Below, one piece after another: positions 664 through 50,503 of a DNA stretch of 64,000 nt (position 1 is its first letter; every line of letters starts with the position of its first letter). The notes under the pieces are model-generated. The model was not told the origin of the DNA. It did no database searches and was given only the letters and a program-made list of their open reading frames with translations. The position numbers and the translations under genes were made by a program. Source of the stretch: an uncultured Gammaproteobacteria bacterium (lineage in GTDB: Bacteria > Patescibacteriota > Microgenomatia > Levybacterales > UBA12049); contig CAZIDK010000002.1 of the NCBI GenBank assembly GCA_964537895.1, forward strand, positions 82,684-146,683, written 5' to 3'.

Positions 664-692
664 TTGACAGTAAGCCCTTTTAGTCCTATTAT
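664..692 (+). promoter_or_regulatory. Near-consensus sigma70 promoter
   Basis: TTGACA (664-669), exact 17 bp spacer, TATTAT (687-692). Confidence 0.45.
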
Positions 693-698
693 AGGGTT

Positions 699-762
699 GT
701 GAAAATCAGATTAAATAGCAGGAAGTTTAATCACATATAGGCCGCCTTATGGCGGTTTTTTT
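699..762 (+). ncRNA. Candidate small RNA or attenuating 5' leader, about 64 nt, bounded by the promoter at 664-692 and an intrinsic terminator
   Basis: Predicted TSS is about 699. The terminator hairpin GCCGCC-TTAT-GGCGGT is followed by seven T (741-762). No convincing ORF lies inside. Confidence 0.3.
741..762 (+). terminator. Rho-independent terminator
   Basis: GC-rich 5-6 bp stem, tetraloop, T7 tract. Confidence 0.5.
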
Positions 763-2458: not shown

Positions 2459-3025
2459 TTAGTTTCCTTCGGGTTCGGGGGGTAAGAATTCTTCTCCCCC
2501 GCTGTTTTCTTCCGATTTAGTTACGTTTCCTTTTAACCATTCTATATAAGTGCATCCTGTTGCTACTCGTTTTGCGCTATCCCAGCCGGCGGTTGAACAC
2601 TTTTTCATTCTTTTCCCTGCATTTGTAGTGAAAATTACAAGCGGTTTGCCGCACTCCGGACATTCTTCGTCTGATTTTTCCGTTGTGCCATTAATCCACT
2701 CCACAAAATCACAGCCAACGGCTTTTTTTGTTTCCTTGTCCCAGCTGCCGGCACTGCATTTTTTCATTTTTTTGCCAAATCGTGTAAATTGCATTACAAG
2801 AGGAGATCCGCATTTTGGACATTTTTCGTCCAAAATTTCAGGCTCAATGGCTATCCATTTAACATAATCGCAGCCTTCATTTTGTCTCGTTTCCTTATTC
2901 CAGCTGCCTTTAGAACAGCGCTGCAGCTTACGTCCTGTTGAGGTTTCAGTAATTTCTCCTAAAGGAGAACCGCATTTCGGACACAAATCTTTAGTCATAA
3001 AATATAGAATATATGATTTAAACAT
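2459..3025 (-). CDS. YrdD-like protein with three tandem topoisomerase-type C4 zinc ribbons
   Basis: Three copies of the motif CPKCGSPL...C(S)..GSW(N/D)KETR...GC(D)(Y/F)V(K/E)WI, about 50 aa apart. Confidence 0.55.
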   Translation of the reverse strand: MFKSYILYFMTKDLCPKCGSPLGEITETSTGRKLQRCSKGSWNKETRQNEGCDYVKWIAIEPEILDEKCPKCGSPLVMQFTRFGKKMKKCSAGSWDKETKKAVGCDFVEWINGTTEKSDEECPECGKPLVIFTTNAGKRMKKCSTAGWDSAKRVATGCTYIEWLKGNVTKSEENSGGEEFLPPEPEGN

Positions 3026-3139
3026 AAAATGAAAGACGCAATTTTATTTGTATAATCTTATAGATATTTTTTAGAATAGACTACGTGCTTAAAGTACATA
3101 TATGCCAATATTGACCTCTTTTGACCTACTTTTACTCTA

Positions 3140-3168
3140 TTGACAAAGGCTATTCAGGAGTATAAAAT
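3140..3168 (+). promoter_or_regulatory. Sigma70-like promoter
   Basis: TTGACA (3140-3145), 17 bp spacer, TAAAAT (3163-3168). Two further TTGACC motifs lie just upstream (about 3111 and 3121). Confidence 0.4.
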
Positions 3169-3174
3169 GATTTT

Positions 3175-3254
3175 TACCTTCAGATACGCAAGTATCAAAA
3201 AGGCAGGAAACCTAGCAATAGGTGACCCGGAAAGACCCCGCAAGGGGTTTTTTT
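3175..3254 (+). ncRNA. Candidate small RNA or riboswitch-like leader, about 80 nt, between the promoter and an intrinsic terminator
   Basis: Ends at the hairpin ACCCCGCAAGGGGT (GCAA tetraloop) followed by a T7 tract. The only ORF inside is 19 codons and overlaps the -10 element. The next gene starts about 90 nt further downstream. Confidence 0.3.
3234..3254 (+). terminator. Rho-independent terminator with GNRA tetraloop
   Basis: Stem CCCC/GGGG, extended by A-T, then tttttttg. Confidence 0.55.
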
Positions 3255-3346
3255 GCGGCTAAAACACTTTTACCTTCATTAAGCTGAAGCTAATCTAACG
3301 ACTATAGGTTGACACAGGGAATGCATTAAGTTATAATAAAAATACT

Positions 3347-4087
3347 ATGGGCGAAAAAACAGGACATAGTCCTTCACGCAGAGAAATTCCTGCACCAATG
3401 AAGATGGATTTCAAAGATTTTGTGCAAGGAATGAATGCTTTAGGAGATCCAAGAGGCATTTTTGTCGTAGACGAAGACAAATTATTCGTCGCAAGAAGAC
3501 CGGAAACAGTAGTTCCGGGACAAGAATATAGTGTTACCAGACAATATTACAGACCATCGGACAATTTTTCCGCTCACGATCTGAAGGCCGAAATTGAACT
3601 TATTTTTGACGGTAAATCCCCGGCTCGGCTAAAACATGTTCTGTTGGAAGCTAAAAACGAGAGAGACCTCTTCAGCATTAGAGTAGGAGATGGAATAGAA
3701 ATACTCGCTGGAGTAGCAGGTTCCACGCTGGATATTAAATACAAGCCTACGGGAGAATTAGAGAGTGTTGTAATAGCCGGGCCAAACGGAGATCATCAGA
3801 AGCGTAAGTTCACCTGGCAAGCTTTAGAGAAAATGCGGATGGCAGGGGAAGAAACAGCTGCTATTTCAATTATTGCCCGTTCGGATTTTCAAAGAGCGTC
3901 TGTACCGCTTAAAATAGACCCGCATTTTTCTGAGCTGGTTTTAGTTAGTGACTTAGTGAGTAATCCTATGACCAGTAATACAAGACTTGATAGTCCTTGG
4001 ATAAATGCGAATTGGCAAGAATTGCTTCGAATTGACTGGAAACATGGTTTTAACCCCGTTAGTATTCGTGACGCCGTAAGGTTGTAA
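3347..4087 (+). CDS. Hypothetical protein
   Basis: 246 aa ORF with typical coding composition. No recognised motifs. Confidence 0.45.
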   Translation: MGEKTGHSPSRREIPAPMKMDFKDFVQGMNALGDPRGIFVVDEDKLFVARRPETVVPGQEYSVTRQYYRPSDNFSAHDLKAEIELIFDGKSPARLKHVLLEAKNERDLFSIRVGDGIEILAGVAGSTLDIKYKPTGELESVVIAGPNGDHQKRKFTWQALEKMRMAGEETAAISIIARSDFQRASVPLKIDPHFSELVLVSDLVSNPMTSNTRLDSPWINANWQELLRIDWKHGFNPVSIRDAVRL

Positions 4088-4127: not shown

Positions 4128-5291
4128 ATGAAGCTTCCTATTAAGTATATAGCCATAATAGCTTCTTTTTTAATATTAAATTTCTTATTCATAAAAAACT
4201 CATATGCAGTTTACGACCCAACATCCAAAACCAACAATATTGTGGGAATTCACATTTTATTTCCCAGCGAACTGGCAGAAGCTGCAAAATTAGTTAATTC
4301 TACGGGCGGAGATTGGGGCTACGTTACAATTCCAATTCAGGCATCAGACAAAGACTTAGTAAAATGGCAGGGTTTTATGGATGATAGCCGAAAATTTCAC
4401 TTAATTCCCATTATAAGACTTGCTACTAGCGGAGATTATTTTAACACTGTATCTTGGTCTAAGCCTACGGATAGTGATGTTTTAGATTTTGCCAATTTTT
4501 TAAACGCTCTTAATTGGCCTACCAAAAATAGGTATGTTGTGATTTATAACGAACCAAACAGGGGTGATGAATGGGGCGGAGCTCCCGATCCTGCGGGGTA
4601 CGCGGAAATATTAAGTTATGCCGCTGACGTTTTTAAGCAAAGAAGCGATGAGTTTTTTATTATTTCCGCAGGACTTGATAATGCGTCGGCTAATATTGCG
4701 GGACAATCGATAAACGAATACTCTTTTATAAGACAAGTGAATAACGCAGTGCCCGGAGTGTTTGGGAAAATTGACGGCCTGGCCAGTCATTCGTATCCAA
4801 ATCCCGGGTTTTCAGAGCCTCCTTCGGCATACGGATATCAAGGAATAGCCAGCTTTAAGTACGAACAGAGTCTGGTGCAAAGCTTGGAAGGCAAACTTCT
4901 GCCGGTTTTTATTACGGAAACGGGGTGGACGGATACTCAAATTCCGGAATCTGTTCAATCGGAATACTACAGGAGCGCATTTACCTCGATTTGGAACGAC
5001 AAAAATGTTATTGCGGTTACTCCTTTTTTGCTTCGGGCAGGAACGGGTCCTTTCGCCCAATTTTCTTTTATCAAAGACGAGCAGGAAAAACGAAATAAGT
5101 ATAAAACGCTACAAAATTTGCAAAAAAACAAAGGAGAGCCGGTACTAAACGAATACTCATTAACCAAGGGTTCGAACGCTGTAGAAAACGACTTTCCATT
5201 AGACAGGTTTACCAAAAGTATAAAGCAGAATTACACGGCGACTGTTTCAAAGGCAGCAAAAAATTTTATGAAATGGCTTCTAAACATTTAG
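4128..5291 (+). CDS. Secreted glycoside hydrolase, clan GH-A-like (TIM-barrel retaining glycosidase)
   Basis: N-terminal signal or TM anchor. Has an acid/base-type NEP motif (VVIYNEPNRGDEWGG) and a nucleophile-type TE-G motif (VFITETGWTD) at the expected spacing. Confidence 0.45.
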   Translation: MKLPIKYIAIIASFLILNFLFIKNSYAVYDPTSKTNNIVGIHILFPSELAEAAKLVNSTGGDWGYVTIPIQASDKDLVKWQGFMDDSRKFHLIPIIRLATSGDYFNTVSWSKPTDSDVLDFANFLNALNWPTKNRYVVIYNEPNRGDEWGGAPDPAGYAEILSYAADVFKQRSDEFFIISAGLDNASANIAGQSINEYSFIRQVNNAVPGVFGKIDGLASHSYPNPGFSEPPSAYGYQGIASFKYEQSLVQSLEGKLLPVFITETGWTDTQIPESVQSEYYRSAFTSIWNDKNVIAVTPFLLRAGTGPFAQFSFIKDEQEKRNKYKTLQNLQKNKGEPVLNEYSLTKGSNAVENDFPLDRFTKSIKQNYTATVSKAAKNFMKWLLNI

Positions 5292-18026: not shown

Positions 18027-19727
18027 CTATTTGCAGGCGTTAATGAATGCCAAAAATATTGGATGGGGAGACAAAGGCCTGCTTTTGTACTCGGGGTGAC
18101 CTTGTGTACCAAAATAAAAAGGATGAATTTCTTTAGGAAGCTCAACTATTTCTGTTAGGTTTTCAACAACAGACCTGGCGCTTATTATTAAACCTTTATT
18201 TTCAAATTCTTTTGCAAATTCATTGTTAAATTCATACCTATGCCTGTGTCTTTCGCTAGTTAAAGCCTTGCTTTTATTTTTAAAACCATTATATTTGTCG
18301 TATATATCGTAGGTTTGCGTACCTTTTTTTATAATTGCGTCCCAACCGCCAAGTCTCATCGTTCCGCCATAGGCTCTTTTTTTTAAAAGCTGCTTCTGGT
18401 TTGGGATAACGTGTATTACGGTATGCTTTGTTTTCTTATTTTCTTCCGTATCTGCGTCTTTTAAATTGAGTACGTCTCTGGCAAAAGCTACGACTGCAAG
18501 CTGCATCCCGTAACAAAGCCCAAGGTATGGAATTTTACTTTTTCTAGCGTAGGAAGCAGCGGCAATCATTCCCTCCGCTCCTCTTTCCCCCCAGCCAATA
18601 GGAACAATAATTCCGCTTACATTGCCAATAACTTCTTTAATTGCCGTTGATGTATCTTTCCTATCCGCCATAGCCTTGGCGGCGGCGGACTCGACTTTTT
18701 CGGCATCAACCCACCTGGTTTTAACCTTTATACCCTGCTTCCATCCTGCATGATCTATGGCGTCAAAAAGCGCGGCATAAGAATCTCTTAGCTGATATTC
18801 CCCTGTACCGAAGTATTTTCCGACAATTGCAATTTCTACTGTTTTTTTGGCATTTTTCGTGCTTTTTACAAACGCTGTCCATTCCCTAAGATTTGGTTTC
18901 CTAACAGGGAGCCCTAATTTTTTCATAATCTTTTTATCTAGCTCCTGTTTATTGAGAACCAATGGAATCTCGTAAACCGACTGCACATCAGGACTTGAAA
19001 TTACATCATCCTTATGCACATTACAAAAGAGCGCAAGCCTGTCTCTTCTTCTTTGATCGAGATATTTTTCACCTCTTGTGATTATAAAATCGGGCTGAAT
19101 TCCCATTGAATTTAAAGTTCTTACAGAAAGCTGGGTAGGTTTTGTTTTTGGTTCTCCTAAATGTCCCGGAGTCGGAACGTAGCTTACGTGAATGTGAATA
19201 ACGTCCTCTGGCTTTTTTAAAGTCATCATGCGGGAAGCTTCATAGTAAAAAACATTTTGATATTCACCGGTGGTTCCGCCTAATTCTATAATTACAATGT
19301 CCGCTTTCTTATTTTTAGCCAAATTATCAATTCTTGAAATTATCTCGTCTGTTATATACGGAATTGCCTCAACGTCTTCGCCGTTATATTCAAATCTTCT
19401 TTCCCTGTCGATTACCATTTGATAAATACTACCCATTGTTACAAAATTTTCCTTACCCATATCTTCGTTTAGAAATTTTTCGTAGGTTCCAATGTCCATG
19501 TCTGCTTCTGTTCCGTCTTCGCATAAAAACGGATCGCCGTGTTCAATGGGATTAATTGTTCCTGCGTCTAAATTAAGATAATTTTCGAATTTTATCGGGG
19601 CAACTTTGTATCCTGCAGATTTAAGTAGAAGAGCTATTGAAGCCGCAGTTGTTCCTTTACCGATTCCGGATATTACTCCTCCGGAAACAAATATATATTT
19701 TGTGTGTTTAATATTACTACCGGGCAC
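18027..19727 (-). CDS. pyrG: CTP synthase
   Basis: N-terminal KYIFVSGGVISGIGKG and a C-terminal glutamine amidotransferase domain with the GLCYGMQ catalytic Cys. Confidence 0.9.
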   Translation of the reverse strand: MPGSNIKHTKYIFVSGGVISGIGKGTTAASIALLLKSAGYKVAPIKFENYLNLDAGTINPIEHGDPFLCEDGTEADMDIGTYEKFLNEDMGKENFVTMGSIYQMVIDRERRFEYNGEDVEAIPYITDEIISRIDNLAKNKKADIVIIELGGTTGEYQNVFYYEASRMMTLKKPEDVIHIHVSYVPTPGHLGEPKTKPTQLSVRTLNSMGIQPDFIITRGEKYLDQRRRDRLALFCNVHKDDVISSPDVQSVYEIPLVLNKQELDKKIMKKLGLPVRKPNLREWTAFVKSTKNAKKTVEIAIVGKYFGTGEYQLRDSYAALFDAIDHAGWKQGIKVKTRWVDAEKVESAAAKAMADRKDTSTAIKEVIGNVSGIIVPIGWGERGAEGMIAAASYARKSKIPYLGLCYGMQLAVVAFARDVLNLKDADTEENKKTKHTVIHVIPNQKQLLKKRAYGGTMRLGGWDAIIKKGTQTYDIYDKYNGFKNKSKALTSERHRHRYEFNNEFAKEFENKGLIISARSVVENLTEIVELPKEIHPFYFGTQGHPEYKSRPLSPHPIFLAFINACK

Positions 19728-20376
19728 GATTTACTATATCAAATAAAGGTGACTTCGTCAACCTTTCTATAATTTCTCTTGGCTCAGATATCAAATAGTC
19801 AGGGTCTGATTCCATTAACCTTTTTTTTGAATTAAAACCCCAAGTAACAGCAATAATGGGAATACCAGCTTTACGTGCGGCTTCAATATCTCGAACTTCA
19901 TCTCCGATATACATTACATTTTCTTTATTTAATTTATATTGTCTAATTAGATGAGCTAATACTTTTCCTTTTCCAAACAGATTGCTTTCTGAATGAATAA
20001 AATCAAGCTCAGCAATCCCCTCATTTTTTAAGAAAAGCTCGACATTCTTTATTGAATTAGAAGTAACGATCCCTATTTCAATACCTTGCTTTTTTAAATC
20101 TTGAAATACCTCTGCCATTCCCTCAACGATGGAAATATCTTGAATATTTTGCCTTAGCTTCGACTGAATATCTTTAACTAATCGCAGTAACTTCCAAGGA
20201 GGTAATCGATACGTTTTTAGAAGTTCTCTCATGCTGGAGTTCCTTATTTTTTCGATGTCAGAATTCTTTATCACGGGTAAACTGTAAGCTGGAGCGACTT
20301 CATTGAATAATTTAAGTATTGACTCGAGAGTATTAGCAATTGTTCCGTCAAAATCAAAAATAACTACCTTAGGCAT
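19717..20376 (-). CDS. HAD-superfamily hydrolase (phosphoglycolate phosphatase-like)
   Basis: Motif I is FDFDGTI; motif IV is GDEVRD. Confidence 0.7.
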   Translation of the reverse strand: MPKVVIFDFDGTIANTLESILKLFNEVAPAYSLPVIKNSDIEKIRNSSMRELLKTYRLPPWKLLRLVKDIQSKLRQNIQDISIVEGMAEVFQDLKKQGIEIGIVTSNSIKNVELFLKNEGIAELDFIHSESNLFGKGKVLAHLIRQYKLNKENVMYIGDEVRDIEAARKAGIPIIAVTWGFNSKKRLMESDPDYLISEPREIIERLTKSPLFDIVNRAR

Positions 20377-40702: not shown

Positions 40703-41425
40703 GTGAATATGTCTAAAAGAAGATCAAGATTAAGTCTTAAAACGGAAAAAAGAACCCGTAAGACAATTTTCTTAACCAGTCTTGGAATACTGATAATTTT
40801 AATTTTGCTTATTAAGTTTGGCATTAATATACTGGTCGGTTTTAGTGTTTTTTTGGCAGGCACTAAGAATCAAGCTTTGACAACATCTAGCTCTTCTAGT
40901 AACACCTTTATCGCTCCCCCGGTTCTAAATCCTCTTCCTAGCGCCACAAACAGCGCCAGGATTGTAATTTCGGGTAAGTCCCAATCTGATAAAACAGTTA
41001 AACTTTATATAAATAACGATTTAAAAGATACAACTCAAGCCGACAAAGACGGGAATTTTTCATTTATTCAAACTCTTTCTGCCGGAGACAACCGGATTGA
41101 AACAAAAGCTGATAAAAATAATAAATCCAGTGATTTTTCCAATAGCTTTACTGTTTTTTTGAAAAATAACGCACCTTCTTTGACCGTAGACTTTCCTTCC
41201 AACGGACAATCATTTTCAAAAGATCAAAACAGCGTTAACGTAAAAGGAAAAACAGATTCGGAAACAAGCGTTACTGTTAATGGCTTTTGGGCAATTATAG
41301 ATGAGAACAGCAATTTCTCTTACAATCTTCCCCTTCAGAATGGAGACAATCAAATAAAAATAACCGCTACAGATCAGGCCGGAAACAAAACCGAAAAGGA
41401 TTTAAAAGTTACCTATTCTCAGTAA
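40703..41425 (+). CDS. Membrane-anchored surface protein with Ig-like (Big) beta-sandwich repeats
   Basis: N-terminal TM helix, then two repeats of about 90 aa each ending in the pattern DKDGNFSF / ENSNFSY. Confidence 0.4.
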   Translation: MNMSKRRSRLSLKTEKRTRKTIFLTSLGILIILILLIKFGINILVGFSVFLAGTKNQALTTSSSSSNTFIAPPVLNPLPSATNSARIVISGKSQSDKTVKLYINNDLKDTTQADKDGNFSFIQTLSAGDNRIETKADKNNKSSDFSNSFTVFLKNNAPSLTVDFPSNGQSFSKDQNSVNVKGKTDSETSVTVNGFWAIIDENSNFSYNLPLQNGDNQIKITATDQAGNKTEKDLKVTYSQ

Positions 41426-42608
41426 GTCCCGTTACAATCCATATCCATTGAAAAATTAACACATAAAATAGACTATTTATAAATAAACTATTAAAAATTA
41501 ATCCCGCAAGCGAAGAAAAAAATATTATTGAAAAGACGTTATTTTTTAGATTTTTTTTAGCAAGCAAAAATAAATTATAAAGCAAGTAAGTATAGGCCCC
41601 AAATCCGACAATCCCTGTTGTCGCAAGAATAAAAAGGAAGCTGTTATCGGTTCCTGCTCCCGAGTGAGTAATTTGCCAGATTTTATTATTTAAACCATAT
41701 TTATTTTGCGCGTATCGGTATGCGTTAAAACCAACACCGAATACCGGACTGCTTTGAAATATTTTTAAAGCAACTTGTGAAGATTCTATTCTTTGCTGGC
41801 TTGAAAATGTTCTAAACAAATTAGTTCCTTCGGTTTGAAACGATTTTGGTATTATAAAAATAATTAGTAAAAGAAGTGTTATTGAGGCAGCTATCATCTT
41901 TTTTCTGCCAATTAAGAAAAGAAACGTTGCGGTGCTTAAAATAAGCATAATTAAAGCGCTTCTTGAATAAGTCAAATAAACTGCGATTAAAACAAAAACT
42001 CCCAATACGCTCAACACAAAACTATGCAAAAGTAATTTCTTTCTAAGAAAATCGTAAGTTAATCCCAAAATGAATATAAAAAACAGAACAAAAAAGCTAC
42101 CGGCAAAATTTGGATCAAGAAAACTGGAAAACATTCTGTAAAGATGCTCATCCCATCCTAAATAAAATAAATTTTTCAAACTGGGATATAAAAAATATTG
42201 CGCGTAGCCGGCTACAACAAATAATAATCCTGAAAACAATAATAAGTAAGGGATTTTATTTCTAAACTCTTTATTAAAACCCCTAACAATAAAAAACAGC
42301 AGGGCATACATTACCCATCTTAACAGGTATAAGAATGAAATTAAAAAATCTGTAACTGAAAGATTTGCTATGTTTAAAACAAGTGAAATTAAGGCGACCG
42401 TAATAAAAATAAGTATTGGTTTAGCAAGGCTATTTTTATTAATCCCCTTCTTATTCAAAACGTGATAAGAAACCCAGGCAACAATTAAGGCTATTAAAAA
42501 AACATCGTTTATGGAAAATGCAACGCCATTTGGAAACTGAAACCTGCCAATTTCAGCAATTGGAAAACTCATAATTAATAATGAAAAAATAGTTTTTAAT
42601 ACGACCAT
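41409..42608 (-). CDS. O-antigen ligase / Wzy-like polytopic membrane protein
   Basis: About 10-12 TM helices with one larger periplasmic loop, sitting in a glycan-assembly gene context. Confidence 0.4.
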   Translation of the reverse strand: MVVLKTIFSLLIMSFPIAEIGRFQFPNGVAFSINDVFLIALIVAWVSYHVLNKKGINKNSLAKPILIFITVALISLVLNIANLSVTDFLISFLYLLRWVMYALLFFIVRGFNKEFRNKIPYLLLFSGLLFVVAGYAQYFLYPSLKNLFYLGWDEHLYRMFSSFLDPNFAGSFFVLFFIFILGLTYDFLRKKLLLHSFVLSVLGVFVLIAVYLTYSRSALIMLILSTATFLFLIGRKKMIAASITLLLLIIFIIPKSFQTEGTNLFRTFSSQQRIESSQVALKIFQSSPVFGVGFNAYRYAQNKYGLNNKIWQITHSGAGTDNSFLFILATTGIVGFGAYTYLLYNLFLLAKKNLKNNVFSIIFFSSLAGLIFNSLFINSLFYVLIFQWIWIVTGLTENR

Positions 42609-49220: not shown

Positions 49221-50486
49221 TTAATGTTGATATATTATCTTAAAGGTGAAATATGTCATAAACGGCAAAGCAACTAAGGAGCCAATTAATGCTGATAATC
49301 CTGCTCCATATATTCCATAAGTTATAACTAATGGAACTATTGTCACAGCAAGACCTATTATGCTAACTAAAGTTACTACTGTTACGTATTTTTGTTTTCC
49401 GACAGATAAAAAAAGAGCAGAGGATGATCCCGATATAGCTCTAATTACGCCGAATATAACAAGAATTCGAAGCACATCTACTATTCCTAACCATTTTTGT
49501 CCAAGAACTACTTTTACAATTTCATTGGGGAATAATACCAATATTATTCCGAATGGTATAGTTACTATTGAAACAAAAAGAAGGGTTTTTAAGAATGCTT
49601 TTCTTAAACGCAATCTATCTTCAGATATTATTGTGTAAACAGGAAAAGTAACTTTGGAAATTACATCTGCAACATCGGTTATTGGTAGCATTGAGATGTT
49701 ATAAGCCATCTGGTACAAACCCAAACTTCCTGTTCCTAAAATTCTTCCAACCACTATGTTGTCAAAATTATGAAATAGGTAACTAAATATTCCGCTCAGG
49801 GTTATCCATTTACCTCTACTTAGTATCCTTGAAAAATACTTTTTGTCAATTGAAAAATGAGGCTTTGGGGAAATAAACAAAAATGAAAAAACAATCTCCA
49901 GAATAACTCCTGCGATAAGGCCAAAAATAAGACCATTAACTGAATGAGTTAAAAAAGCTAACGTTATTGAAACGGATGAACCAAAAAAGAATATTATTAA
50001 TCTATACCAAAACTCTTTACGAAAATTTAATTCTTTTTGAAATTTAATTACAGAAGGATTAATGAATCCCCTTAAGAACGGAACGATTGCTAATAAGAAT
50101 AATACATCAAGGGAACCTGGAGAATGAAAAAATACCGAAACAAAAGGAGCCAATATCAATATGGATATAGCAATAAAAATTCCTCTTATTATCGACACTA
50201 TCCATGCAGAATTTAGATAATTCTCTATTTTACCTTTTTCCTGTATAAGTAGCACATTTATGCCGGTCTCTGTTAGCACCTCCAATAAAGCCATAATTAA
50301 CATAGCAATTCCATATACTCCAAATTGAGAAGGACTAAGAATGCGAGCAAGCAATATGATGCTAAGAAAAGAAACTGCTCTTGTAGAAAGCTTAAGTGCC
50401 CATGTCCACGAAATACCAGTTATTACGTTTTTTGTAAACCCCATATTTAGTATTGAAATTATACCAGCTTTAGCTTTATAATACAT
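49221..50486 (-). CDS. Wzx-like polysaccharide flippase (MOP superfamily)
   Basis: 421 aa with about 12 TM helices and the polysaccharide-biosynthesis-protein signature pattern. Confidence 0.5.
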   Translation of the reverse strand: MYYKAKAGIISILNMGFTKNVITGISWTWALKLSTRAVSFLSIILLARILSPSQFGVYGIAMLIMALLEVLTETGINVLLIQEKGKIENYLNSAWIVSIIRGIFIAISILILAPFVSVFFHSPGSLDVLFLLAIVPFLRGFINPSVIKFQKELNFRKEFWYRLIIFFFGSSVSITLAFLTHSVNGLIFGLIAGVILEIVFSFLFISPKPHFSIDKKYFSRILSRGKWITLSGIFSYLFHNFDNIVVGRILGTGSLGLYQMAYNISMLPITDVADVISKVTFPVYTIISEDRLRLRKAFLKTLLFVSIVTIPFGIILVLFPNEIVKVVLGQKWLGIVDVLRILVIFGVIRAISGSSSALFLSVGKQKYVTVVTLVSIIGLAVTIVPLVITYGIYGAGLSALIGSLVALPFMTYFTFKIIYQH

Positions 50487-50503
50487 TATCCTGCCTCAAT
50501 CAA

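What the first reader, a model, noticed from the sequence alone, without database searches (positions are those of the whole stretch)
3105..3254. Second orphan promoter-terminator unit (about 80 nt) preceded by three TTGAC(C/A) motifs
TTGACA-17-TAAAAT at 3140-3168, then an approximately 80 nt transcript, then a textbook terminator (GNRA-looped CCCC/GGGG stem plus T7). It lies in a 320 bp gap between two divergent genes. Two more TTGACC motifs sit upstream at 10 bp and 19 bp spacing (about 3111, 3121, 3140). They might be iterated sites for a regulator or alternative -35 elements. The only internal ORF is 19 codons and overlaps the -10 element. The terminated RNA shares a short agcaggaa / ggcaggaaa block with the 699-762 candidate.
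Basis: seen in the sequence. Interest (0 to 1): 0.5.

Follow-up and report, generated by a model that had tools for sequence, protein, structure and literature searches.

The report
Conserved small RNA gene of Levybacteria
The flagged promoter-terminator unit is a real, previously undescribed gene for a roughly 79-nucleotide, three-hairpin small RNA that sits at the same genomic position in every Candidatus Levybacteria (an uncultured "candidate phyla radiation" lineage) genome fragment I could check; its function is unknown.

Summary
TTGACA-17-TAAAAT (3140-3168) is followed by a 79-nt stretch (3176-3254) that ends in a CCCC-GCAA-GGGG hairpin plus U7.

This is not a chance pairing of signals. 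I found 18 distinct versions of the unit in Ca. Levybacteria genomes and metagenomes. Five of them came from a search that did not use the RNA sequence at all, and all five loci examined that way carried it.

All 18 versions fold on their own into the same three hairpins. The middle hairpin (P2) differs in almost every lineage, with compensatory changes at all 6 pairs. The first hairpin (P1), the AGGCAGGA linker, a CCCCGAAAA linker and the terminator stem are nearly invariant. The promoter spacer and the downstream flank are about 33% identical, roughly random.

No ORF is conserved, no Rfam 15 family matches, and I found no paper describing it.

In at least 9 loci a convergent obg gene follows the terminator directly. 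Elsewhere the downstream gene has its own promoter. So this is a stand-alone RNA that acts in trans, not a leader.

Its mechanism is only inferred: either a base-pairing regulator or a protein-bound RNA.

The exact TTGACC repeats are not conserved, but (A/T)TTG motifs phased every 10 bp upstream of the -35 are. The similarity to the 699-762 unit is at noise level.

The parts
3111..3139 (+). Upstream T-rich region with phased TTG motifs: TTGACC at 3111, TTGACC at 3121, TTTT at 3130. These lie 30, 20 and 10 bp before the -35. It is probably an UP-like or curved-DNA element, or a set of regulator sites.
   Evidence: Sequence. The arrangement is unique in the window. (A/T)TTG motifs are kept in the same 10-bp phase in 17 of 17 full-length promoters, but the exact TTGACC is kept only in the window, L004, L008 and L011.
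3140..3145 (+). -35 hexamer TTGACA.
   Evidence: It is invariant in all 19 promoters examined, including two whose RNA is cut off by the contig end.
3163..3168 (+). -10 hexamer TAAAAT, 17-nt spacer.
   Evidence: Every homologue has a TATAAT-like hexamer at the same distance. The first 14 nt of the spacer are only 31-35% identical between lineages.
3176..3254 (+). Predicted small RNA, 79 nt, from A3176 (7-8 nt after the -10) to the end of the U-tract.
   Evidence: Folding. Covariance model R1 scores it at 91 bits, E = 2e-21, and it is the only strong match in 64 kb with filters off. There are 18 distinct homologues.
3177..3203 (+). Hairpin P1. Lower stem CCUU/AAGG, internal loop CA/AAA, upper stem GAUAC/GUAUC, GCAA tetraloop (3188-3191).
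   Evidence: The sequence is nearly invariant even at positions the search pattern left free. There is one compensatory U-A to A-U flip (L046, L047), and a U and an A are lost together from the lower stem in L046-L048.
3201..3208 (+). Invariant purine-rich segment AGGCAGGA. It covers the 3' end of P1 (3201-3203), the 2-nt CA linker (3204-3205), the GG clamp below P2 (3206-3207) and A3208.
   Evidence: Identical in 18 of 18 versions, including the six not found through a pattern containing it (L003, L046-L049, L104).
3206..3227 (+). Hairpin P2. GG/CC clamp (3206-3207 with 3226-3227), internal loop, variable stem CCUA/UAGG (3211-3214 with 3219-3222), GCAA loop.
   Evidence: All 6 modelled pairs show changes on both sides. 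The stem has a different sequence in almost every lineage. The loop is GNRA in 17 of 18 versions and UUUU in L046.
3226..3235 (+). Conserved C-rich then A-rich linker. It is CCCGGAAAGA here; the consensus is CCCCGAAAAGA.
   Evidence: The linker and P3 together are 91-92% identical across lineages, and no part of them was in any search pattern. The A-tract can pair with the U-tract.
3236..3254 (+). Intrinsic terminator P3: CCCC-GCAA-GGGG plus U7.
   Evidence: The four C-G pairs are unchanged in 17 of 18 versions. The motif occurs once in the window. In related loci it lies 8-32 nt from the stop codon of a convergent obg gene, so there it is probably bidirectional.
3255..3258 (+). GCGG directly after the U-tract. 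It is conserved, and it could extend the terminator helix by pairing with the linker CCCC.
   Evidence: GCGG in 15 of the 17 full-length loci aligned and GCGT in the other two (L006, L049), while the next 36 nt are 35% identical.

Best explanation
**What it is (confidence about 0.8)**

Window 3176-3254 (+) is a free-standing gene for a structured small RNA of about 79 nt. The window belongs to a Candidatus Levybacteria genome (Patescibacteria/CPR, Microgenomates group).
- It is transcribed from a near-consensus sigma-70-type promoter (3140-3168). Phased T-rich motifs precede the promoter.
- The RNA should start at A3176.
- It should be released at the intrinsic terminator (3236-3254).

The RNA forms three consecutive hairpins:
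- P1 and the terminator hairpin P3 are conserved in sequence, as are two short linkers (AGGCAGGA and CCCCGAAAAGA).
- P2 is conserved only as a shape.

The RNA acts in trans. It is not tied to any downstream gene.

**How it most likely works (inferred, about 0.35)**

I think it is most likely a base-pairing riboregulator. Its invariant pyrimidine-rich parts are the 5' ACCU(U)C, which resembles the anti-Shine-Dalgarno sequence, and the CCCC runs of the linker and of P3. These would pair with G-rich ribosome-binding regions of target mRNAs. The RNA's own AGGCAGGA segment masks them in the free RNA. This is how C-rich-motif small RNAs such as RsaE/RoxS work in Firmicutes (from my own knowledge).

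**Shown:** sequence signals, fold, covariation, conservation, synteny, absence of a conserved ORF, independence from downstream genes.

**Inferred:** that it is transcribed and terminated as drawn, that it acts in trans, and the pairing mechanism.
For: **Signals and fold**
- Promoter at the stated coordinates and terminator in the sequence.
- Fold of -31.9 kcal/mol with z = -5.2.

**Homologues**
- Two GTDB Levybacteria genomes.
- Twelve metagenome contigs.
- One locus found through the neighbouring protein.
- Five of five loci fetched only because they encode a homologue of the downstream 387-aa protein at 55-67% identity.

**Structure is under selection**
- All 18 versions fold independently into the same three hairpins.
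- Pair counts on 17 sequences: 96.4% of cells paired against 87.6% in shuffles.
- The covariation score is 0.292 against 0.129, reached by 0 of 500 shuffles.
- Sliding the partners by one column drops pairing to about 50%.
- All 6 P2 pairs have double changes.

**Sequence is under selection**
- Among the six lineages found without an RNA pattern, the 5' domain is 83% identical and the linker plus P3 92%.
- P2 is 37% identical, the promoter spacer 31% and the downstream flank 35%.
- The -35 hexamer is invariant, and the RNA's first A lies 7-8 nt after the -10 in every locus.

**Independent of downstream genes**
- A convergent obg gene ends 8-32 nt after the terminator in at least 9 loci.
- The gene at 3347 has its own perfect promoter.

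**Not coding, single copy**
- No conserved ORF.
- One copy in the window.
Against: - No transcript evidence could be consulted, so the RNA's existence, ends and abundance are predictions.
- Duplex scans of the 5' domain and of the C-rich linker against 53 translation-start regions in the window gave nothing better than shuffled queries. The best was -18.8 against a shuffled mean of -18.8 for the 5' domain, and -12.9 against -13.7 for the linker. The window is only a small part of the genome.
- Most of the pyrimidine-rich segments are paired in the predicted fold. The hairpin loops are GNRA tetraloops, which are poor pairing seeds.
- Many genes in this genome appear leaderless, which would limit a regulon based on Shine-Dalgarno sites.
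- P1 and P3 are invariant helices while P2 covaries freely. That pattern fits recognition by a protein at least as well as base pairing.
- Thirteen of the 18 versions were found with a pattern that fixed parts of P1 and the linker. Their invariance at those positions is not independent evidence.
Confidence: 0.78

Rival explanations
1. The gene and RNA are the same, but the RNA works by binding a protein, either as a component of a ribonucleoprotein or as a decoy. P1 and P3 would be read sequence-specifically. P2 would be a spacer whose sequence does not matter.
For: - P1 and P3 show almost no covariation, while P2 is rewritten in nearly every lineage.
- The terminator stem is identical in 17 of 18 versions, although no search pattern constrained it.
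- The loops are stable GNRA tetraloops rather than pairing loops.
- No target was found by duplex scans.
- A protein made of three tandem Top1-type zinc ribbons is encoded divergently, 0.1-1.3 kb away, in 11 of the loci held.
Against: - No partner is identified.
- Zinc-ribbon homologues of 73-75% identity sit in other contexts with no such RNA within 6 kb.
- The RNA occurs without that gene next to it in L047-L049. The linkage therefore looks like shared ancestry within one subclade.
- P3's invariance may also reflect its second job as a bidirectional terminator for obg.
Confidence: 0.3
2. It is a cis-acting leader or attenuator (riboswitch-like). Regulated read-through of its terminator would control the co-oriented downstream genes: the 246-aa gene at 3347 and the 387-aa glycoside-hydrolase-like gene at 4128.
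For: - The RNA points towards the 387-aa gene block in every locus that extends far enough.
- In L018 and L039 it ends only 75 and 51 nt before that gene.
- Two CCCC runs and several GG runs could in principle swap partners.
Against: - In at least 9 loci a convergent obg gene lies between the RNA and the 387-aa gene.
- The gene at 3347 has a perfect promoter of its own, and L018 and L039 have a TACAAT -10 element just before the 387-aa gene.
- The minimum-energy fold forms the full terminator in all 18 versions, with no competing helix.
- No Rfam riboswitch or leader family matches, even at E up to 10.
Confidence: 0.06
3. There is no functional RNA. A promoter-like sequence happens to lie upstream of a terminator whose real job is to end convergent or upstream transcription (obg, or the toxin-antitoxin pair).
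For: - The hairpin is placed to terminate obg in many loci.
- In L004, L008 and L011 a ParE-type toxin gene ends 105-135 nt upstream in the same orientation.
Against: - This does not explain compensatory evolution of P2, 83-91% identity of the 33-nt 5' domain next to 31-35% identity in the spacer, an invariant -35 hexamer, or the fixed distance from -10 to the RNA start.
- The window has neither obg nor the toxin-antitoxin pair at this site, yet keeps the whole unit.
Confidence: 0.03
4. It encodes a small protein, or it is the antitoxin RNA of a type I toxin-antitoxin pair with a small hydrophobic peptide on the opposite strand.
For: - There are ORFs of 40, 21 and 29 (antisense) codons in the window.
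- The antisense peptide has a hydrophobic stretch.
Against: - The start codons lie upstream of the predicted RNA start. One of them is the -35 hexamer.
- Homologue lengths of 78-83 nt shift the frames. L006 and L030 have no ORF of 15 codons or more. No peptide is shared across lineages.
- The substitutions in P2 are compensatory for pairing, not synonymous.
Confidence: 0.01

Closest known systems
C-rich-motif, Hfq-independent small RNAs of Firmicutes (RsaE/RoxS type; comparison from my own knowledge)
   Same: - A free-standing gene of about 80-100 nt with its own strong promoter.
- Two or three hairpins ending in an intrinsic terminator.
- Strong sequence conservation across a whole clade.
- Short invariant CCCC runs, which in RsaE/RoxS pair with G-rich ribosome-binding sites.
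   Different: - There is no sequence or covariance-model similarity, and no Rfam match at E up to 10.
- Here the CCCC runs are largely paired (GG/CC clamp and terminator stem) and the loops are GNRA tetraloops.
- No targets are known, and the host is a CPR bacterium.
- This is a resemblance in how it may work, not family membership.
Lineage-specific structured RNA motifs found by comparative genomics and catalogued in Rfam
   Same: It is defined by the same kind of evidence: a conserved intergenic block with covarying stems, promoter and terminator signals, no ORF, and a narrow taxonomic range.
   Different: It is not in Rfam 15. The literature searches I ran found no paper on small RNAs of Levybacteria or Microgenomates.
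Transcription attenuators and riboswitch leaders
   Same: The layout is promoter, structured RNA, strong intrinsic terminator, then co-oriented genes, in the window and in L003, L018 and L039.
   Different: - The downstream genes have their own promoters.
- A convergent gene intervenes in many loci.
- No alternative antiterminator fold is predicted.
Bidirectional intrinsic terminators between convergent genes (general knowledge)
   Same: A G+C-rich hairpin is flanked by an A-tract on one side and a U-tract on the other. It lies 8-32 nt from the stop codon of convergent obg in many loci.
   Different: Here the hairpin is also the 3' end of a conserved RNA. It is kept unchanged where no convergent gene exists, as in the window.

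Membership tests
Any described RNA family (Rfam 15, 4227 models) | A score at or above the family's gathering threshold, or at least a credible sub-threshold match on the correct strand. | tested here: not met
   Only four tRNAs pass in the whole window. With permissive filters on 131 nt, the best hits score 9.6-15.4 bits against thresholds of 43-141 bits, and most are on the wrong strand.
Free-standing bacterial small RNA gene (generic class) | Own promoter at a fixed distance from the RNA's 5' end. | tested here: met
   TTGACA is invariant, a TATAAT-like -10 sits 17-18 nt downstream, and the RNA's first A lies 7-8 nt after the -10 in every full-length locus.
Free-standing bacterial small RNA gene (generic class) | Conserved secondary structure supported by compensatory changes. 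| tested here: met
   - 96.4% of cells are paired.
- 7 pairs have double changes, and the covariation score was reached by 0 of 500 shuffles.
- Slid controls drop to about 50%.
- The independent minimum-energy folds agree.
- Caveat: the alignment was fitted to the model, and the covariation is concentrated in P2.
Free-standing bacterial small RNA gene (generic class) | Intrinsic terminator that defines the 3' end. | tested here: met
   CCCC-GNAA-GGGG plus U7 in 17 of 18 versions; the 18th (L038) has CCCC-GAAA-GGG. The consensus scanner missed it.
Free-standing bacterial small RNA gene (generic class) | No conserved protein-coding potential. | tested here: met
Free-standing bacterial small RNA gene (generic class) | A discrete transcript is observed. 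| not testable with these tools
   No RNA-seq or metatranscriptome data were available.
Riboswitch / transcription attenuator | Obligate position in the 5' leader of the regulated gene, with no intervening promoter or opposing gene. | tested here: not met
   There is a perfect promoter at 3309-3337. Convergent obg lies directly downstream in at least 9 loci.
Riboswitch / transcription attenuator | A mutually exclusive terminator and antiterminator fold. | tested here: not met
   The minimum-energy fold and the centroid are identical and include the terminator. The same holds for the minimum-energy fold of all 18 versions. Suboptimal folds were not explored in depth.
Type I toxin-antitoxin antisense RNA | A conserved small hydrophobic toxin ORF overlapping or adjacent. 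| tested here: not met
   The antisense ORF is not conserved in frame or in presence.
CsrB/RsmZ-type protein sponge | Several GGA motifs displayed in hairpin loops or between hairpins. | tested here: not met
   There is one unpaired AGGA (in AGGCAGGA), and all the loops are GNRA or UUUU. The nearest Rsm hit in the region is elsewhere (1892-2014) and below threshold.
Signal recognition particle RNA (4.5S) | A single long helix whose domain IV has a GNRA loop flanked by conserved symmetric and asymmetric loops (the AGCA motif). | tested here: not met
   - No SRP model hit, even at E up to 10.
- The 3' flank of P2 is variable (UGA, AUA, CA, UG and others) rather than AGCA.
- The architecture is three separate hairpins.
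RsaE/RoxS-like C-rich-motif sRNA (by mechanism) | Unpaired C-rich motifs complementary to G-rich ribosome-binding sites of conserved targets. | tested here: inconclusive
   The CCCC runs are invariant but mostly paired in the fold. No target stands out among 53 start regions. The rest of the genome is not available.

The most novel reading that the evidence does not exclude
The RNA is a housekeeping ribonucleoprotein component present across Levybacteria. Its invariant P1 and P3 hairpins would be read by a dedicated protein. One candidate is the divergently encoded protein made of three tandem Top1-type zinc ribbons: three hairpins matched by three zinc-ribbon modules. That would be a new RNA-protein machine specific to a CPR lineage, rather than an ordinary regulatory small RNA.
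Probability: 0.08. Interest if true: 0.7.

Novelty: new member of a known kind. Interest (0 to 1): 0.4.

Why it matters
**Why a candidate like this is useful**
- The literature searches run here found no paper describing small RNAs in this lineage.
- This RNA has a strong promoter and is kept at one genomic position across Levybacteria. Parts of it are almost frozen in sequence while its neighbours are randomised.
- That makes it a concrete, well-delimited candidate for a first characterised non-coding RNA in this group.

**What it gives straight away**
- A covariance model and 18 sequences that can seed a new RNA family.
- Precise predictions of the 5' and 3' ends to check in existing groundwater metatranscriptomes.
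- A marker for a conserved gene neighbourhood.

**Limits**

It is a new example of a familiar class, a small RNA gene bounded by a promoter and a terminator. Its function is unknown. So it is of moderate interest rather than a surprise.

Tried and rejected
1. **Rfam scans** at gathering thresholds and with permissive filters on 3.1 kb and on 131 nt: nothing credible.
2. **Kinship with the 699-762 unit.**
   - The default covariance-model search gives no hit.
   - With filters off it scores 16.1 bits. That alignment skips P1's upper stem and P2, and it starts inside that unit's own -10 element.
   - An antisense site inside a coding region scores 16.9 bits.
   - Rejected as noise. That unit was also not found in any other locus held.
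3. **Coding potential:** rejected.
4. **Target search** by RNA duplex energy against 53 start regions in the window, for the 5' domain and for the C-rich linker: no better than shuffled queries. One search timed out.
5. **Complement of the invariant linker** (TCCTGCCTTTTTG, up to 2 mismatches): 5 matches against 3.1 expected. AGGCAGGA itself: 4 matches against 1.2 expected; one is the ribosome-binding region of the gene ending at 50486 on the minus strand. Not significant.
6. **Functional link to the neighbouring zinc-ribbon protein.** Six loci with homologues of 73-75% identity in other contexts have no match within 6 kb. The adjacency is therefore treated as subclade synteny.
7. **Phage origin.** Viral-contig scans gave 0 hits with the P1 pattern. 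A looser linker pattern gave 54 hits, none of which matches the model.
8. **One genome hit** (L007, Acutalibacteraceae) **and 19 of the 31 metagenome pattern hits** were chance matches inside coding regions.
9. **A MAFFT alignment misplaced P2**, so RNAalifold missed it. This was solved by building a model from 10 well-aligned sequences and realigning all versions to it.
10. **Motifs considered by eye and rejected:** K-turn, hammerhead core, SRP domain IV, guanidine-II and preQ1-like motifs. The flanking nucleotides they require are absent or variable.
11. **Literature:** four searches found nothing on small RNAs in Levybacteria, Microgenomates or Patescibacteria.
Full report
**1. What is in the sequence**

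The signals are at the stated coordinates.
- The intergenic region runs from a minus-strand gene for a protein of three tandem Top1-type zinc ribbons (2459-2998 or 3025) to a plus-strand 246-aa gene at 3347.
- It contains TTGACA (3140-3145), a 17-nt spacer and TAAAAT (3163-3168). This is an 11/12 match and among the three best in the first 6 kb.
- Seven to eight nucleotides after the -10 comes an A (3176).
- 79 nt later the sequence ends in GACCCC-GCAA-GGGGU followed by seven T (3234-3254).
- The terminator scanner did not list this hairpin. Its stem can be extended through A/U pairs that use up the T-run, which probably explains the miss.
- Folding recovers the hairpin. The 82-nt stretch folds at -31.9 kcal/mol, z = -5.2, and none of 200 shuffles folds as well.

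The fold is three consecutive hairpins, each capped by a GCAA tetraloop.
- P1: CCUU/AAGG, then GAUAC/GUAUC.
- P2: a GG/CC clamp, then CCUA/UAGG.
- P3: the terminator.

The two upstream TTGACC motifs are at 3111 and 3121, as reported. The triple arrangement is unique in the window and absent from 100 shuffles, although that test was chosen after seeing the pattern. Neither TTGACC has a -10 partner, so they are not alternative promoters.

Two details in the finding are wrong or overstated.
- The unit overlaps ORFs of 40, 21 and 29 codons, not one of 19.
- The similarity to the 699-762 unit is a 7-nt identity.

**2. Where the window comes from, and the search for relatives**

The window is from Ca. 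Levybacteria.
- The downstream 246-aa protein has only two homologue clusters among 5.8 billion proteins.
- The zinc-ribbon protein and the 387-aa protein at 4128 have thousands of homologues. Where a source names them, the organism is almost always Candidatus Levybacteria, Levyibacteriota, Microgenomates or Patescibacteria.

The first comparison came from a contig whose 246-aa protein is 74% identical (L003).
- It keeps the whole unit.
- Its P2 stem is CCGCU/GGUGG instead of CCUA/UAGG, and the GCAA loop is retained.

Pattern scans then found more copies. The pattern left the upper P1 stem free.
- One scan of 185,579 species-representative genomes returned two Levybacteria genomes and one chance hit in a coding region.
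- The same kind of scan over metagenomes returned 31 hits. Twelve were true homologues and the rest were chance matches in coding sequence.

These hits share parts of P1 by construction, so I looked for unbiased cases.
- I fetched five loci solely because they encode homologues of the 387-aa protein at 55-67% identity.
- I searched them with a covariance model built from ten of the earlier sequences.
- All five carry the RNA, at 72-92 bits and E = 1e-16 to 1e-21. Each differs from the search pattern.

The total is 18 distinct full-length versions, plus three cut off by contig ends.

**3. Evidence that an RNA structure is under selection**

- Each of the 18 versions, folded on its own, gives the same three hairpins, including the GG/CC clamp under P2.
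- On the model-based alignment of 17 sequences, 96.4% of pair cells are standard pairs, against 87.6% after shuffling.
- The covariation score is 0.292 against 0.129, reached by 0 of 500 shuffles.
- Sliding the partners by one column drops pairing to about 50%.
- All six P2 pairs have changes on both sides. The stem has a different sequence in almost every lineage: CCUA, CCGCU, AUACUC, GCUUUC, GACCUUC, GACAUA, GAUCAGCU and others.
- P2's loop is GNRA in 17 of 18 versions and UUUU in one.
- P1 shows one true flip (U-A to A-U in L046 and L047) and a joint loss of one U and one A from the lower stem in three lineages. Otherwise it is frozen.
- P3 never varies in its four C-G pairs.

Caveats: the alignment was fitted to the model, and the covariation is concentrated in P2.

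**4. Evidence for selection on sequence**

Mean pairwise identity among the six lineages found without any RNA pattern:

| Segment | Identity |
|---|---|
| 33-nt 5' domain | 83% |
| P2 region | 37% |
| CCCCGAAAAGA linker plus P3 | 92% |
| Promoter spacer | 31% |
| 36 nt after the terminator | 35% |

- AGGCAGGA is identical in all 18 versions.
- The -35 TTGACA is identical in all 19 promoters seen.
- GCGG follows the U-tract in nearly all loci.
- Upstream of the -35, the exact TTGACC copies are kept only in the window's near relatives. An (A/T)TTG motif recurs at about -10, -20 and -30 in all lineages.
- Two subclade-specific versions of the farther upstream block exist.
- I read this as an UP-like or curved-DNA element of a strong promoter, or as phased binding sites. 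That reading is an inference.

**5. Why it is a stand-alone RNA acting in trans**

The gene order is conserved:
1. The zinc-ribbon gene (divergent), sometimes separated from the RNA by an inserted ParE-type toxin-antitoxin pair.
2. The RNA.
3. A variable slot.
4. The 387-aa gene.
5. An RNase H-like gene.

The variable slot holds the 246-aa gene in the window and L003. It holds nothing in L018 and L039. In at least nine loci it holds a convergent obg GTPase gene whose stop codon lies 8-32 nt from the RNA's terminator.
- With an opposing gene in between, the RNA cannot be a leader for the downstream block.
- In the window the next gene has a perfect TTGACA-17-TATAAT promoter of its own.
- No competing antiterminator fold appears.
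- On the opposite strand the hairpin is followed by UCUUUUC, so it probably ends obg transcription as well. This may contribute to its invariance.
- No ORF is conserved on either strand.
- The window holds a single copy.

**6. What it does**

This part is inference. Two readings fit.

(a) A base-pairing regulator, my slight preference at about 0.35.
- The 5' end ACCU(U)C resembles the anti-Shine-Dalgarno sequence.
- There are two invariant CCCC runs.
- The RNA's own AGGCAGGA resembles a ribosome-binding site. The same octamer lies just upstream of the start codon of the gene ending at 50486 on the minus strand.
- C-rich small RNAs of Firmicutes use such motifs to cover G-rich ribosome-binding sites (my own knowledge).

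(b) A protein-bound RNA, about 0.3.
- Frozen helices next to a freely covarying one, together with GNRA loops, suit recognition by a protein.

Evidence that weighs against (a):
- Duplex scans against the 53 start regions in the window were no better than shuffles.
- Many genes here look leaderless.

Evidence that weighs against (b):
- No partner is known.
- The tempting partner, the adjacent three-module zinc-ribbon protein, is found at 73-75% identity in other contexts with no such RNA within 6 kb.
- The RNA occurs without that gene beside it in L047-L049.

**7. Comparison with what is known**

- No Rfam 15 family matches at any threshold tried.
- Four literature searches found no report of small RNAs in this lineage.
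- Tests for membership in riboswitches and attenuators, type I antitoxin RNAs, Csr/Rsm sponges and SRP RNA all failed on defining features.
- The nearest analogues are clade-wide, terminator-ended small RNAs such as RsaE/RoxS. The resemblance is in layout and possible mode of action only.

**8. Verdict**

- This is a new RNA family of a familiar kind, restricted so far to Ca. Levybacteria.
- Delimitation is good and comparative support is strong, but the function is unknown.
- Interest is 0.4.
- The most novel reading left open is a lineage-specific ribonucleoprotein, possibly with the neighbouring zinc-ribbon protein. I give it about 8%.

Noticed in passing
window 3309-3349; also the starts at 4128, 13826, 15313, 19717-20376 (minus strand) and 2998 (minus strand): Many genes appear leaderless. 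A TATAAT-like hexamer sits 8-10 nt before the ATG and there is no Shine-Dalgarno sequence; the gene at 3347 follows a perfect TTGACA-17-TATAAT. Other genes carry a strong AAAGGAGGTGA site (923, 23210, 29961, and 41409-42608 on the minus strand). The genome seems to mix two modes of translation initiation.
   Followed up: partly
L004 4169-4698 compared with window 3026-3100; also L008, L011 and L015: A ParE/RelE-type toxin-antitoxin pair is present just upstream of the RNA in a relative whose neighbouring 246-aa protein is 97% identical (L004), and in L008 and L011. It is absent from the window. Only a decayed C-terminal remnant is left in L015. The site is a presence/absence hot spot.
   Followed up: partly
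window 3088-3113: The block GTGCTTAAAGTACATATATGCCAATATTG lies upstream of the RNA promoter. It is highly conserved in one Levybacteria subclade (window, L004, L006, L008, L011, L015, L033, L038). In another subclade TTTTATTTTGGGGGTGTTTGATATAC takes its place. Its function is unknown; it may be a regulator site.
   Followed up: partly
window 3274-3289: The inverted repeat CTTCA-N6-TGAAG lies between the RNA terminator and the promoter of the 246-aa gene. The repeat and the whole 3255-3346 spacer are about 85-90% identical to L003, although the proteins are only 74% identical. It may be an operator for that promoter.
   Followed up: no
window 2459-2998 (minus strand): This protein is made of three tandem Top1-type C4 zinc-ribbon modules (CPxCG...CS...GC.[YF][VI].W, three times). 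It has more than 2000 homologues, and the top 120 are 70-85% identical, across Levybacteria and Microgenomates. Its function is unknown, and it is unusually well conserved for this lineage.
   Followed up: partly
window 664-762: A second promoter-terminator unit lies next to tRNA-Glu: TTGACA-17-TATTAT, a hairpin with AGCAGGAA in its loop, then a terminator at 739-758. It was not found in any other locus held. It resembles the RNA studied here only at noise level.
   Followed up: partly
window 3347-4087: The 246-aa protein has no Pfam match. It has only two homologue clusters among 5.8 billion proteins. It occupies a slot that holds obg or nothing in related genomes, so it looks like a recent lineage-specific insertion with its own consensus promoter.
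   Followed up: partly
window 4128-5291: The 387-aa protein has no Pfam hit for this copy. It has more than 6000 homologues, a few of which are annotated GH5 cellulase or Glyco_hydro_cc. Homologues carry an N-terminal signal-like segment. It anchors the conserved gene block downstream of the RNA.
   Followed up: no
window 50487-50503: Two divergent genes have start codons only 17 nt apart. The gap contains GAGGCAGGA, the same octamer as the RNA's invariant linker. It serves as the likely ribosome-binding site of the minus-strand gene, and its complement lies in the 5' region of the plus-strand gene.
   Followed up: no
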